DNA of 64,000 nucleotides from the human T2T-CHM13v2.0 reference genome, Homo sapiens, in the NCBI RefSeq assembly GCF_009914755.1, contig NC_060931.1. One strand, given 5' to 3'. The stretch's first letter is position 1; each line of letters starts with the position of its first letter. Shown piece after piece: positions 7,490 through 14,170 of this stretch. A program made the translations under genes and the position numbers. A model generated the notes under the pieces. It did not search any database and was not told the origin of the DNA. It worked only from the letters and a program-made list of their open reading frames with translations.

Positions 7490-7712
7490 CTCTAGTCCAA
7501 AGTACCAGTAGTCAAAGTTGGGAGGCGCTAATAGGCTTTTGTTGTAAGCCCCAGTAAATGTTCCACAAAGGGCCACCAGGTGCAGAATTTGTCCTGACCA
7601 GCACTTCAGCTTCTCCACTCTCTGTGGGCTTGGACAATCTTACTGGTTCCCATTTAGTCCAATTAATATTAATTAATATTTTTCACAGGGCAGCTTTACA
7701 TACCTTCTGGGT

Positions 7713-8007
7713 TGTTTTTTTTTTTTGAGATGGAATCTCACTCTGTTGCCCAGGCTGGAGTGCAGTGATACAATCTTGGCTCACTGCAACCTCTGCCCTC
7801 TGAGTTCAAGCAATTCTTCTGCCTCAGCCTCCCAAGTAGCTGGGATTACAGGTGCCTGCCACCGCGCTCGGCTAATTTTTTGTATTTTTAGTAGAGATTG
7901 GGTTTCACTATGTTGGCCAGGCTGGTCTAGAACTCCTGACCTCATGATCTGCCCACCTCAGCCTCCCAAAGTGCTGGGATTACAGGCGTGAGCCACCGCG
8001 TCTGGCC
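7713..8007 (-). mobile_element. AluS
   Basis: Antisense full dimer; ataccttctg on both flanks. Confidence 0.95.
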
Positions 8008-8902
8008 CATACCTTCTGTTTTATAGTACCAGGTAGAGGAAACATTCCCCAGTTGGATACTATATCCATTTTTAGAGACTGTTTAACTAAAGAAGACAAA
8101 ACTACTCTCCATAAAGCCTGTGTAAACATTTTCACTTTCATAATCCTATCAACCCTTACATTTTTATGTTCCAGTCCTAGGAACTTCTTTTATCTACCCC
8201 CAGACCATTTTACCTTCTGTTGTGAAAAAGGGTTTGGGTCCCCAGCAACTCTTAAAACTCTGCTAAGATGTAGGCATGGTTTTTATCATCCCTTCCTGCT
8301 CAGGGGTCATGTGGTTGAGCCAAGAGACTTGGGGACCCTTTTGTCAATCTTAGCTTGACATCAACATTGCCCCAGACAGTTGTTGGTCAGCTTTCTCATT
8401 GCAATCTTTGCCCTCTAATTAAAAAGAGAAATCTCTAATCTGGGGGTAAATACAGAAAACTTGTTTGGGGCCCCTTAGTGTTGGGAGACCAGCAGGGGCT
8501 CCCTTTGGTTCACCCAGTCTTCTGTATTGTTGTATTAAGACCTTTTGTTTAACCTCATCGGTTTCCATTTTATTCATTGCATTTCTTAATAACTGTATAC
8601 ATATTTCTACCCTGTTGGGGTAGGTCCATGACTCTTCCCTCTCATTAATTAACCTAATATTTTTATTAGCATTTGTAAGATAAGGCTTCTCCAATTGTTA
8701 GATTCTGCCAGAATAACATGAGGTGCCCATATAGAAGGGGCCCTATTCACCATAGCACTTACCATGACCTGGGTAACAGGCATATTCCCTGGGTGAAAGT
8801 CCCTGTCATCATAAAGCAAATCCCCCACGGCTTGCATACAAAACATATCAACTGCATCATCTAGGGTGCTTCACTTGGCATTTATAGGGAGGGTTGCATT
8901 AC

Positions 8903-9575
8903 ATACAGTAGGTAGTCAGGCAGGCATGAGCAGGGCAGGAATGTCAGGTGACCATCAGGTGATAGGCAATTGCTAAGCTGGCTCTTTAAAATAATAATTG
9001 GTTAGAGCTGGTGCCAGAGAAAGGCAATCTCCTAATAGATAGAAAAAACCTGAAGCTGGTGCTAGCGGCTTCCCAGTAAGATCTCAGGAGCTGGGTGAGT
9101 GGGCTCAAGCATATGCATTAAAAGGCAAAGAGGCAGGGTTTAACCAGTATATGACCTTCCTCTAGGAATGCTCAGCTAGTAAGGGAAGAAGGCCTCGAAT
9201 GAGCATCTGCACAACTTCAGTAAACACACTGTGCATGTGGCCCCTCCCAAGTGCTGGCAGGCCAGTACACATGCAGACAGCCTGCCCCCAGGAAAAATCA
9301 AGGGAGAAGTAATGCAATCCTGGAAGCATGCCAGCATATGAAACCTCAAGTCAAAGGTCAAACAGAGCACTTAACTCTCTCAAGTTGCTTGCTTGGCTGT
9401 CTTCCAAGTATTCTTCCTTTCATTCCTGCTCTAAAACTTTTTAATAAATGTGCACTCCTCCACTAAAACTTGCCTTGGTTTCTCACTCTGCCTTATGGCC
9501 CTCAGTCAAATTCTTTCTTCTGAGGAGGCAAGAATTGAGTTGCTGAAGACCCATATGGATTCACCACTGCCAATA
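8903..9575 (+). mobile_element. MER50 LTR (ERV1)
   Basis: agtaggtagtcaggcaggcatgagcagggcagg...aagtcaaaggtcaaac...gaggaggcaagaattgag matches the recalled MER50 consensus. Confidence 0.85.
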
Positions 9576-10128
9576 ATAGTTTAACTTGAAAGCAAGGATG
9601 CTAATAGTCCCCCACCCAAACTAATCCCCTCCTGGCTTAGGGACCGAAAATCACCTTCATGAGACTAATAAAAGGCCACAAGAATAGGATTATGGAAGGG
9701 GCCTGAGTTCTGATAAATGTTGGTATAGTTTCTATAACCCCTTGCTGCTCAGAAGTCATGTGGCCAGATGTCACAAGATTTGTGGCTTACCCAGTTGCTC
9801 CTATAGATAACATTACTACTGCAGAACCTAAGATTGCTTTTTGAGATATTTTTCAGATGGGCCCCATCCAGATTCATGATTCATGACTCAGCTTGTCCTG
9901 TGGCCCCACCCAAAAGTGGACTCAGTGCACGAGGACCATTTTCCACACCCCTGTGATTTCATGTCCAGTCAATCAGCAACTCTATTCCCTAGCCCCTTGC
10001 CCACCAATTGTCCATAAAAATCCTAACTTCCGAGGCTTCAGAGAAACTGATTTGAGTGGTAACTCCAGTTCTCTTGTGTGGGTTGGCCTTCTGTCAGTTA
10101 AACTTTACTGCAATACTGTGGTCTCAGG
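9576..10128 (+). mobile_element. LTR8-family LTR (LTR8A/B), truncated at both ends
   Basis: aagcaaggatg...gtcacaagatttgtg...ggccccaccc...gaggaccattttccacacccct; homologous to 19162-19911. Confidence 0.8.
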
Positions 10129-10787
10129 ATTACTTAGTTTAACATGACTTTAAGACTTCAAATTACTCAAGAGAATTTTGAAACTAGTTTATTTACCAAA
10201 GATTACCAAAGTCACATGAACTAAAAGATATTTGAGCTAGCTTCTATTTTTTAAAATAAAAATTTGATTTAAGCACTTGATTTTTCCTTAAGCCAATTGA
10301 TTAGAGCCCTTTCATATGTTTTGGTAGTGAAATGTCACATACTCATGACACATATAAGCATATAGACAGATGCTATATACATCTGTCTATATGTATGTAT
10401 ATAACAGATGTATATGTATGTATATAAGCATATAACAGATGCACAGAAGCAGATCTTATGAATTTATAAGACTTTTCACTCACCAGTTTTCAAAAAGTTT
10501 ATTCCCTATCTTAGAGTATTAATCTCTTGCATATCTGTTCCATGCATCTCCAAAGGCAGGACTCAGGAGAAACAAGATAGAAAGTTTACCTCTCAAAGAC
10601 ACAGGACTCGGATCTAAACAAAAGCAAGGTTTCTTATGTAAACTCTAAGCCATTGTCTTCCCATAGTGAACATTCCTAGTGGCTTAAGTGCAGTGACAGA
10701 GATGCCCTTACAAATGGAGATTTCCTTTAAAGATGTAAATTTCTTCTACAAAGAGTTTCAAAGACTGATTTAGTTTGATAAGTGGTC

Positions 10788-11002
10788 TTTTTTTCCCCTC
10801 TAAAATACTTAGCTTTATTAGAGAAATGGTACTAAAATAACAGATTCCAACAACATTTGCTGTATTTCTACTTATATATCATAAATAAGACAGCTGTTGA
10901 TGCAAGACACCCTCTTTCACAATCTTTCCATACGCACCCAAGATTCTTGTATCAGAATAAGCTATTTACCAGCCAACCATATGTGGTTGAATGATTAAAA
11001 TG
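10788..11002 (-). pseudogene. 5'-truncated processed retrocopy of an unidentified mRNA 3' end
   Basis: 15-bp TSD gataagt(g/t)gtctttt at 10777-10791 and 11003-11017; minus-strand AATAAA at 10814-10819, 19 nt before a short A tail. Confidence 0.75.
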
Positions 11003-11482
11003 GATAAGTTGTCTTTTCAACTTGGCTTGTCTCTTAATTAGATCATAGCTTTATAGTGAAGCCCTTTAAAGAACAAGGCCAAGAAGGCATGCAGTTTTTA
11101 GGGCCTGCACCCTGCTTTTCTTATCCAAATGTCCAAAGAACCAAGCAGCCTCCTGCAGCAATGACCATCTCCTGCAAACAACTGTCCTCAGCTACTCCCA
11201 GCACTGAAGCTCTCACTGCCATCACACTGCCAGACACCACACATGCGTTGAGGTCAAATCCACTCATGGTACCATCCAGTCTTTGGTATCCCCAAAGCCA
11301 AAGAGATCAGGAAAAGCAATATAAAAGGCAGTAGAGTCTTATCTGTCCACTTATGACTCTTGGAGTTCCATGAAGAAAAACCAATGATCCTTCTAGAAAG
11401 AGTCTGGTATCTGTTCCATTTTCCCCAAGGGATCCCAGGCTGTCAGAAATTTCCCTTTTTGGGTCCCTCATATGGCATTGAG

Positions 11483-11940
11483 TATGCAGTCCTAATTAGA
11501 GAAGAGGTGTCAGGCTGGTGGGAGCAGGGGAAAGCAAAAAGAAAAAGCAGATGAGCTGTAAGTCTGCCTTTCTTAATGGTCCAGGACACGTAGCCCTCCT
11601 GCACAGATAACTCACATGACCCATGATCTTCCCACCCAACTTATCATCAAACACCTCGACTTATCAAACAAACACCTCGCTGATAGAAGAATGCAAGCTA
11701 GCTCACTGCAACCTTAGGGTTATCAGAACTGCGTGTAGCCCTCTCCAGCACAAGCATCATCCTATAAAATCCCCAGCAATCCTCTGTCTCCTGGAACTCA
11801 GCTCCTCTCTTGCTGATCTGCCCACTGCTTTCTTGCAACTTTGCACTTTCTCTGATAATCTGCCTTTCTTTACCTACGACTATCTTGGTAAATTCCTTTA
11901 CTGCCTGTGCCGCTGGCCCAGATAGTTGCTACCTGTGACA
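11483..11940 (+). mobile_element. ERV1 solo LTR, MER84/MER83/LTR56-like
   Basis: Start resembles TGTGGAGTCCTAATTAG, TATA-like cctataaaa, ends gtgaca; TSD ttgag / ctgag. Confidence 0.7.
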
Positions 11941-12479
11941 CTGAGGGTGGCAAGAGGAAGGAGGGACAGGCAGAAGCAAATGAAGAAACAGGATCCAGTG
12001 GATGGAGAAATTTTACAGAGACAGAACAGAGGCCTTAAGGCTGTGTATGTATATGTATATATGTATACATATATCAACAAAACGTCAGTTTTAACTAAGT
12101 CAACTTTTTATTATAGAGCTCTAAAAAAACCTTTTTCTCAATTGTAATTCCTACTGGGGCCATTTTACGTTGCTTCTTCTGGCTGGGTTTCTGTCACCAA
12201 ACATTCAACCCACAGAAGTGGCCATCCACACACTGCCCTGCTTTACTGCAGTGAGATAGAAGCTCTCGGCTAACCATCATTCTAAATATACCAGTGTTTT
12301 CAGGGAGTCCTTATAGGTCATTCTCTAGACTATCTGTCCTGTTCCACTGGTCTCTTTATTTAACTTTCAGTGCAGATTTGATCAAGCCTTTTCTCTGGGG
12401 TCTGCAAGTGATCATATCTGAGACACCCTGCTGTATTTGCTGGTCCAAGGCTTCTGGAGTCTGGCTGAGCCTCAGGGTA

Positions 12480-12620
12480 ATCTGAGGAGCTTTTTCAAAA
12501 CACTCACGTCCCCTCTGTGAGGTTGTGGTTCAGTGGGTCTGTGCTGGGGTTAGGAGTCTCAGGTGTTCACAAGCTTCCCGGGTGATTCCAATGATTGGCT
12601 GTTTGGGAACCACTTCTGTG
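12480..12620. mobile_element. MER5-type hAT MITE
   Basis: tcagtgggtctg...caagcttcccgggtgattcc...tttgggaaccact. Confidence 0.6.
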
Positions 12621-12659: not shown

Positions 12660-14170
12660 TCCTATGAAGTGAGAACTGGAAGGGAATTTGAGGATAAGGT
12701 ATCCCCAGTTTCTCCCTGTAAGATGAAGGACTTAAGGCTTAGAGAAAGGAAACAAAGAGTCCAAGTTGTAAATAACTCAATGGCAGAGCCAGCATTTGGC
12801 TCAGTTTCTTAAGCATCACCCATTTCTATGCTCGTTCATTTATTCATCCATTTGTTCATACATTATTTCTTTCAATCCTTTTTAGTTTCTGTGGGTTTTA
12901 TTTTTCTTGTTATTTCTGTCAAGCATCAAGTATTTGTAAGGGCCTATTGTATGTGAAGAAGTGCTATGCTAAGTACTGGAGATACAGGTAAACATACATG
13001 ATCCCTGAACTCTCGAAGCTTAAAATCTTGTTGGAAGACAGGCATGCAGGCAGACAATTGAAATCTGATTGCACATGTACTAGAATAAATGGATGCTCTG
13101 ATGATAGCGAGATCATAGGGAGGCAACTCAAGTACAATGAAGGGAGTCAAGCTGAGCTTGATAAGGGGGGCATTTGGGATGGGACTGGGTGTGAGGCTGA
13201 GCTTGCCTGGAGGATATGGGCAGGGAAGGCACTCAGCAGAGCTGCAGACTGAGCACCGAGTCAGGGAAGGATGGGAGAGTTGGAGAGGGCATATCGTCTG
13301 TTCTTGGATACCACAGCCTGAGTACAGAGGCAGGGAAGGATGGGAGAGTTGGAGAAGGCACATTGTCTGTTCTTGAAGACCACAGCCCGAGGACAGAGGC
13401 ATGAAGGATAAGAGAGTTGGAGAAAGCACATTGTCTGTTCCTAGGGGGCACAGCCTGAGAGCACAGAGGCAGGAAGGATATGAGAGTCGGAGAAGGCACA
13501 CTGTCTCTTCCTGGAGGGCACAGCCTGAGAGCATAGAGGCAGGAAGGATGGGAGAGTCGGAGAAGGCATGTTGTCTGTTCCTGGAGACCACAGCCTGAGA
13601 CAGGAGAGACAGGGGTGGGACTGAAGATGGAGCTAGGACTCACCCACCTTGGAAAGGTCCTGCCTGCCGTTCTTCTGTCTTATGTTGGTACTGATAGGGA
13701 CTCAGGAAAGACTTTCAACAAGAAGATGACTGATCTAATTTCTGTGCAGAAAGGTCATTCTGCACAGAAATGGCCAATGGGCCAAAAAGAGGAGAGAGTA
13801 GAGGCAGGGACTCCAGGGGGGATGAGAGAATTCAGCAAATTCAGTGAAAATGAATGCCTGAACCGGGTCCTGGCATTGTGAGTGGGGAGGAGAGGCAAAC
13901 AGGAGGTAAGGAGGCACCTCTCTGGACTTGACGGTTGGTAACATTTGGGAAGAAAGAGTGGGAGGAAATTGGGATGCCACTTCATTTTCTGGCCTAACAA
14001 ATGAAGCGCATGGTGGTGCCGCTAATCGAGATAGGGAATTCAGAAGGAGTGCTTGTGGAGGGAGGTAGGAAGATGAGCTCATTCTCATATGCTAAATTTG
14101 AGGTACCTGTGGGTCAGGCAGAGGCAGGTGCCACCTGGAGCTTAGGAGAGAGAAATGGGATATAACAATG
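12660..14170. mobile_element. MIR (about 12660-12800) followed by L2 fragments (about 12835-14170)
   Basis: agatgaaggacttaaggcttagaga (MIR core); ttcatttattcatcc and tttgaggtacctgtggg (L2). Confidence 0.6.
13251..13600. repeat. Minisatellite, five diverged copies of a ~69-70 bp purine-rich unit
   Basis: Unit approx. gagcacagaggcaggaaggatgggagagttggagaaggcacattgtctgttcctggagaccacagcct, starting near 13251, 13320, 13389, 13459 and 13529. Confidence 0.92.

What the first reader, a model, noticed from the sequence alone, without database searches (positions are those of the whole stretch)
10777..11017. Hidden ~210-bp retrocopy of a cellular mRNA 3' end inside ERV internal sequence
Seen: a 15-bp direct repeat gataagt(g/t)gtctttt (10777-10791, 11003-11017) brackets AT-rich sequence unlike its flanks. 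On the minus strand it ends ...ttctctAATAAAgctaagtattttagagggg-A7, with the signal 19 nt before the tail. The target reads ttg/aaaa on the minus strand. Established: TSD, poly(A) signal, A tail and a TT/AAAA-like site indicate L1-mediated retroposition. Inference: a severely 5'-truncated processed pseudogene with 3'UTR only, which ORF-based annotation would miss. It records a germline poly(A) site of its parent and could terminate minus-strand transcripts. I cannot name the parent gene.
Basis: partly seen in the sequence, partly recalled or inferred. Interest (0 to 1): 0.7.

Follow-up and report, generated by a model that had tools for sequence, protein, structure and literature searches.

The report
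Tiny SREK1 3'UTR retrocopy inside ERV
A 206-base copy of part of the SREK1 gene's 3' untranslated region sits inside an old retroviral repeat on chromosome 7, likely pasted there from the mRNA by LINE-1 enzymes, and it is a real but ordinary, probably inert, short processed pseudogene.

Summary
Window 10797-11002 (minus strand) is a 96% copy of chr5:67,001,892-67,002,096, about 2 kb into the 3'UTR of SREK1. Published SREK1 primers, siRNAs and exon coordinates map to that locus. Homology stops 17 nt after the parent's AATAAA, where a U/GU-rich tract begins. A 15-bp target-site duplication (14/15) brackets the copy. Of 24 paralogous host-repeat copies, 16 show both flanks: 13 have the empty site and none has this insert. 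One carries an independent truncated Alu at the same target, which shows the site is an L1-type substrate. Two corrections: the insert is no more AT-rich than its left flank, and four of the seven A's belong to the duplication, so the tail is weak evidence. It fits the known class of short mRNA pseudogenes (Terai 2010, hundreds in human), but I did not find it in that catalogue. It is probably 15-40 My old and most likely inert. Use of the poly(A) site and any terminator or antisense role are untested. New member of a known kind, low interest.

The parts
10797..11002 (-). Copy of SREK1 3'UTR, chr5 (C5):67,001,892-67,002,096 (+); 195 matches, 8 substitutions, 3 small indels
   Evidence: parent identity
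10814..10819 (-). AATAAA, conserved from the parent (C5:67,002,074-079)
10792..10796 (-). Tail remnant GGAAA between end of homology and the downstream duplication (only 3 A outside the TSD)
10777..10791 (-). Downstream target-site duplication, 15 bp; its T4 end on the + strand is the inferred primer for reverse transcription
11003..11017 (-). Upstream target-site duplication, 15 bp; blunt junction with the 5'-truncated copy, no microhomology
11014..11019 (+). Inferred L1 endonuclease site TTTT/CA (one departure from TTTT/AA)
   Evidence: site tally in paralogues
10126..11486 (-). Host: decayed non-coding internal (leader-side) region of an LTR retroelement; dispersed repeat, interrupted by the insert
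   Evidence: orientation from paralogue L033 (LTR, PBS-like TGG, PPT, second LTR start)

Best explanation
This is a 206-bp copy of an internal stretch of the SREK1 3'UTR flanked by a 15-bp duplication, likely made when LINE-1 reverse transcriptase copied an SREK1 mRNA ending at a poly(A) site about 2.0 kb past the stop codon, and it is probably non-functional. Shown: the source, both breakpoints, the duplication, the empty site in paralogous repeats, and the direction of copying (chr5 to chr7). Inferred: L1 ORF2p nicked the + strand at TTTT/CA, primed on the mRNA's poly(A) tail, copied 206 nt and stopped. The second-strand cut 15 bp away made the duplication, and the tail later shrank. This happened in the germ line or early embryo of a primate ancestor roughly 15-40 My ago, after the host provirus had integrated.
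For: The only non-self genome match is chr5, at 94% by BLAST with E 1e-81; K2P distance is 0.041. Homology ends 17 nt after AATAAA, before a U/GU-rich tract; only 3.9% of positions in this UTR lie 10-30 nt after an AATAAA. The TSD is 15 bp, the modal length in Terai 2010. The empty site is seen in 13 of 16 paralogues with both flanks, of 24 examined; the insert is in 0 of 24. Both chr7 TSD copies share a base at position 5 that none of those 16 paralogues has, so the duplication arose in place. Paralogue L049 has an independent truncated Alu in the same orientation at the same target, with the target duplicated. My implementation of Terai's TSDscan score gives 1832, or 1396 without the TTAAAA term, against a threshold of 1100. 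Three of 3 exon siRNA/primers from PMC8927159 tested by search map to the parent locus. An RT-PCR primer pair for the SREK1 3'UTR from PMC4926211 has its reverse primer inside the copied segment.
Against: The tail is nearly absent: 3 A outside the TSD, and the parent has a templated AAAA at the same place. No exon junction is spanned, so splicing is not shown. The endonuclease site departs from TTTT/AA by one base. There is no 5' microhomology. I found no published coordinate confirming this poly(A) site (no relevant hit). Primate orthologues were not available.
Confidence: 0.93

Rival explanations
1. It is still L1-mediated, but primed internally on the genomic AAAA of a longer SREK1 transcript or pre-mRNA, so it records no real poly(A) site.
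For: The parent has AAAA right at the breakpoint, and only 3 A lie outside the TSD.
Against: Only 5 of 42 A-runs of 4 or more in this UTR start 10-30 nt after an AATAAA, and this is one of them. The 2 extra G and 3 extra A are not explained by simple annealing of the target T4 to the templated A4.
Confidence: 0.04
2. An orphan 3' transduction: an L1 or SVA upstream at the SREK1 locus read through to this poly(A) signal, and truncation removed the element.
For: It leaves the same hallmarks (TSD, tail, truncation); PMC5470649 describes the mechanism.
Against: The first 2,070 nt of the terminal exon match nothing else in the genome. The 3.6 kb upstream gives only 39-135-nt repeat scraps among 40 scored candidates (that search skips very common words). 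SREK1's own mRNA supplies the template without a donor.
Confidence: 0.01
3. DNA-level or repair-templated insertion at a break, not reverse transcription.
For: No splice junction, almost no tail, and a blunt 5' junction.
Against: A 15-bp TSD starting AAAA, an end at the poly(A)-signal distance, and an Alu using the same target with the same geometry in a paralogue.
Confidence: 0.015
4. The segment is native to the ERV internal region or was captured by the retrovirus itself, or chr5 is the copy.
For: None found.
Against: 0 of 24 paralogues hold it. There are only 2 genomic matches. The best 12-mer across the chr5 flanks is 9/12, so chr5 has no duplication, and the chr5 segment is continuous with the rest of the UTR.
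Confidence: 0.005

Closest known systems
Short (<=300 bp) mRNA-derived pseudogenes, Terai et al. 2010 NAR (PMC2831318)
   Same: 3'UTR-only, 206 bp, 15-bp TSD, TTAAAA-like site, from a long mRNA's last exon, missed by ORF-based annotation; passes their score by my implementation.
   Different: Not among their chr7 rows that I could find. Very short tail. No 5' microhomology, which their model invokes. It ends at an internal rather than the most distal poly(A) signal.
5'-truncated Alu/L1 TPRT insertions
   Same: Same target chemistry; an Alu sits at the same target in paralogue L049.
   Different: The template is a single-copy gene's mRNA.
Orphan L1 3' transductions
   Same: Unique sequence plus tail plus TSD without element sequence.
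   Different: The source is a gene's own terminal exon, and no donor element is evident upstream.

Membership tests
Short mRNA-derived processed pseudogene (Terai 2010) | Homology to the 3'UTR of an mRNA elsewhere in the genome | tested here: met
   96% to SREK1 3'UTR; a published RT-PCR primer lies in the source segment
Short mRNA-derived processed pseudogene (Terai 2010) | Length <=300 bp, 5'-truncated | tested here: met
   206 bp; starts about 1.8 kb after the stop codon at C5:67,000,080
Short mRNA-derived processed pseudogene (Terai 2010) | TSD of 5-30 bp at both ends | tested here: met
   15 bp, 14/15; single copy at paralogous empty sites
Short mRNA-derived processed pseudogene (Terai 2010) | Poly-A tract directly downstream | tested here: inconclusive
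   A7, of which 4 belong to the TSD; the parent has genomic AAAA there
Short mRNA-derived processed pseudogene (Terai 2010) | TT/AAAA endonuclease site (not always present per the paper) | tested here: inconclusive
   TG/AAAA, one departure. Of 16 paralogues with both flanks, the + strand reads TTTT/CA in 6, TTTT/AA in 4 and other in 6
Short mRNA-derived processed pseudogene (Terai 2010) | TSDscan score >=1100 | tested here: met
   1832 (1396 without the TTAAAA term); my hand implementation, HOXD70 values recalled
Processed pseudogene (general) | Loss of introns | tested here: inconclusive
   The copy lies wholly within the last exon; no junction is spanned
Processed pseudogene (general) | 3' end at a used cleavage/poly(A) site | tested here: inconclusive
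   AATAAA 17 nt upstream and U/GU-rich tract downstream; no 3'-seq data; coordinate searches found nothing relevant
Processed pseudogene (general) | Orthologous empty site in an outgroup | not testable with these tools
   No other primate genomes held; paralogous empty sites used instead
ERV-internal native sequence | Present in other copies of the family | tested here: not met
   0 of 24 paralogues
Host as LTR-retroelement internal region | LTR, PBS, PPT around the homologous region in a paralogue; named family | tested here: inconclusive
   L033 shows LTR, PBS-like TGG, PPT and a second LTR start. No retroviral Pfam hit in 30 window frames. The family name (ERV1/MER4 group) is recalled; no Dfam library is available

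The most novel reading that the evidence does not exclude
The flanking LTRs, in a region RefSeq marks as enhancer, transcribe across the insert. A + strand transcript would then carry 206 nt antisense to SREK1's internal poly(A) site and could bias SREK1 3'-end choice or feed endo-siRNAs in embryonic or germ cells; a minus-strand transcript would end at the borrowed AATAAA.
Probability: 0.03. Interest if true: 0.55.

Novelty: new member of a known kind. Interest (0 to 1): 0.18.

Why it matters
Modestly. It adds an apparently uncatalogued retrocopy, the only copy of the SREK1 sequence I found in the searches run. It is a fossil record that an internal SREK1 poly(A) site was probably used in a primate ancestor's germ line. 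It is a possible mis-mapping source for reads and probes in that 206-nt part of the SREK1 3'UTR. It shows that paralogous repeat copies can stand in for outgroup genomes as empty-site controls. It does not change any model: hundreds of such elements are described.

Tried and rejected
Rfam scan of 9500-12500: 11 sub-threshold matches, all to AT-repeat stretches and none in the insert. Pfam on 68 unchanged stop-to-stop frames: no family in any of the 30 window frames, including the two over the insert. One RVT_1 hit (E 9e-5, below cut-off) lay in L044 well away from the homologous region, so coding remains do not identify the host. PDB and Atlas searches with the parent's RRM exon gave only generic RRM hits; the gene name came from published primers and coordinates instead. 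Other SREK1 retrocopies that might share the 3' end: none for the first 2,070 nt of the last exon or the RRM exon. The distal 3.2 kb search was swamped by an Alu (40 of 8,313 candidates scored), so it is uninformative. Literature: 'SREK1'+'retrocopy' gave 0 papers; 'SREK1'+'pseudogene' gave 17, and none of the 15 listed is about this by title or abstract start. Searches for recalled transcript-end coordinates gave nothing relevant. Enhancer role for the insert: all 4 octamer-like, both SOX-like and the one NANOG-like motif in 9515-12141 lie outside it, which is weak but gives no support. 'Hot spot' reading of the shared target: 1 other clear insertion among 16 paralogues in Alu-rich loci is not enough to claim enrichment, and I ran no statistical test.

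Full report
Observation. There are 15-bp repeats at 10777-10791 and 11003-11017 with one mismatch, a minus-strand AATAAA at 10819-10814 lying 19 nt before A7, and the target TTG/AAAA. The repeat by itself is weak: 6 of 100 shuffles of a 2.5-kb region give such a pair. The insert's GC (0.33) is like the left flank (0.32-0.37) and unlike only the right flank (0.46). Four of the seven A's belong to the duplication.

Source. A search of the own genome with 10792-11002 gave 2 matches, from 2 candidates scored: self and C5:67,001,892-67,002,096 (+), E 1e-81. Pairwise alignment gives 195 matches, 8 substitutions (5 transitions) and 3 small indels, K2P 0.041. Homology starts abruptly at the upstream duplication, without microhomology. 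It ends at window 10797, 17 nt after the end of the parent's AATAAA; the parent then continues with AAAA and a U/GU-rich tract. The chr5 flanks have no duplication (best 12-mer 9/12), so chr5 is the donor.

Parent gene. Upstream of the match on the same strand are exons for an RRM (Pfam RRM_1, E 5e-12), RS-rich and EK-rich segments. The last coding exon's stop ends at C5:67,000,080, so the copy covers about nt 1,812-2,016 of the 3'UTR. Two exon-10 siRNAs and one exon-9 primer published for SREK1 (PMC8927159; passages and supplement passages seen) each match once, exactly, in this locus (3 of 3 tested). The hg19 chr5 SREK1 exon coordinates in a supplement row of PMC6203201 fit one offset in the range scanned, 1,525,384, which puts the breakpoint at about hg19 chr5:65,476,712. 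PMC4926211 (passages and supplement rows seen) reports SREK1 3'UTR shortening and used an RT-PCR pair whose reverse primer lies inside the copied segment (exact on chr5, 2 mismatches on chr7), so the segment is part of the mRNA. Six more AATAAA lie within 2.8 kb downstream, so the site is probably internal rather than the gene's most distal. My recollection that an older RefSeq SREK1/SFRS12 model ended within 2 nt of this point comes from no call; searches for those coordinates found nothing relevant.

Empty site. The flanks are a dispersed repeat (40 of 252 candidates scored, 64 matches). I compared 24 paralogous loci pairwise. Sixteen had both flanks by my score cut-offs and 8 were dropped; in 13 of the 16 the flanks are joined by 20 nt or less, with one copy of the target, and none of the 24 holds the insert. 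Both chr7 duplication copies share a base at position 5 that none of the 16 has, so the duplication arose at this locus. Of the three exceptions, L049 carries a roughly 166-nt truncated Alu (82.5% to the window's Alu-type repeat at 7705-8010) in the same orientation, with the target duplicated around it. L013 has a T-rich run at the site, and L037 is diverged. In paralogue L033 the homologous region lies about 1.1 kb downstream of an LTR and a PBS-like TGG, with a purine tract and a second LTR start further on. The host is therefore an LTR-element internal region on the window's minus strand, and the retrocopy is in the host's sense. The family name (ERV1, MER4 group) is recalled; no retroviral Pfam domain was found in 30 window frames. 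Paralogues were held as 3-7.5-kb loci, so the host's full extent was not mapped.

Mechanism. Shown: source, breakpoints, duplication, empty sites, direction. Inferred from established L1 biology (PMC2831318, main text parts 1-3 of 4 read; PMC5470649, passages): ORF2p nicked TTTT/CA on the + strand, primed on the poly(A) tail, copied 206 nt, and integration duplicated 15 bp; the tail later shrank. Controls for the 3' end: 3.9% of UTR positions, and 5 of 42 A-runs, lie 10-30 nt after an AATAAA. This favours a real poly(A) site over internal priming without proving it. Age: the host flank differs from 14 paralogues by 12-22% (median 18%) while the insert differs from its parent by 4% (Poisson range 1.7-7.8%). 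With assumed rates of 1.0-2.2e-9 per site per year, point estimates run from 9 to 41 My depending on whether the parent was constrained; 15-40 My is my working range.

Function. Most likely none. The copied AATAAA is in the host's sense, but the parent's U-rich downstream tract was not copied, and three other minus-strand AATAAA lie within 9515-12141. The RefSeq enhancer tiles (hub annotation) span two further LTR-like insertions absent from the paralogues (about 9578-10125 and 11487-11933), and the pluripotency-factor-like motifs I scanned all fall outside the insert. No expression data were available.

Comparison with what is known. Terai et al. 2010 (reached through a passage in PMC4509998) defined this class: about 650 pseudogenes of 300 bp or less from 3'UTRs, with TSDs peaking near 15 bp. 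This element scores 1832 against their threshold of 1100 by my implementation. In their Table S1, a whole-file search for coordinates beginning 1519-1522 gave two chr7 rows, of 511 and 947 bp. In parts 15-16 of 25, which hold the chr7 block, no chr7 row of 190-240 bp lies near 152 Mb. The hg17 position (about 152.1 Mb) is my estimate from recalled offsets, and supplement file 1 could not be searched. 'SREK1'+'retrocopy' gave 0 papers, and the 15 listed of 17 for 'SREK1'+'pseudogene' look unrelated from the search listing. GENCODE, RetroGenes and RCPedia could not be checked, so 'uncatalogued' is provisional.

Verdict. A real, well-supported short processed pseudogene of SREK1; new member of a known kind; interest 0.18.

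Noticed in passing
L049:3453-3652 (C10:123.54 Mb): A paralogue of the host repeat carries an independent 5'-truncated Alu at the same target, same orientation, with the target duplicated: a parallel insertion at one site of a repeat family.
   Followed up: partly
L013:1484-1510 (C15:60.01 Mb): T-rich run at the same target site, possibly a poly(A)-only insertion or a slippage expansion.
   Followed up: no
window 11487-11933 and about 9578-10125: Two LTR-like insertions absent from paralogues of the host element; the one near 11508-11940 has TGTCA...TGACA ends and a TATA box near 11765 on +. The three RefSeq enhancer tiles (9515-12141) span both.
   Followed up: partly
window 13252-13613: Tandem array of about 70-bp purine-rich units, 5 copies.
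   Followed up: no
window 10336-10437: AT-repeat stretch forming an imperfect hairpin; gives sub-threshold Rfam miRNA matches, probably chance.
   Followed up: partly
L003:9912-9930 / window 10964-10982: A published SREK1 3'UTR RT-PCR reverse primer also matches the chr7 copy with 2 mismatches; its forward primer does not, so no cross-product is expected.
   Followed up: yes
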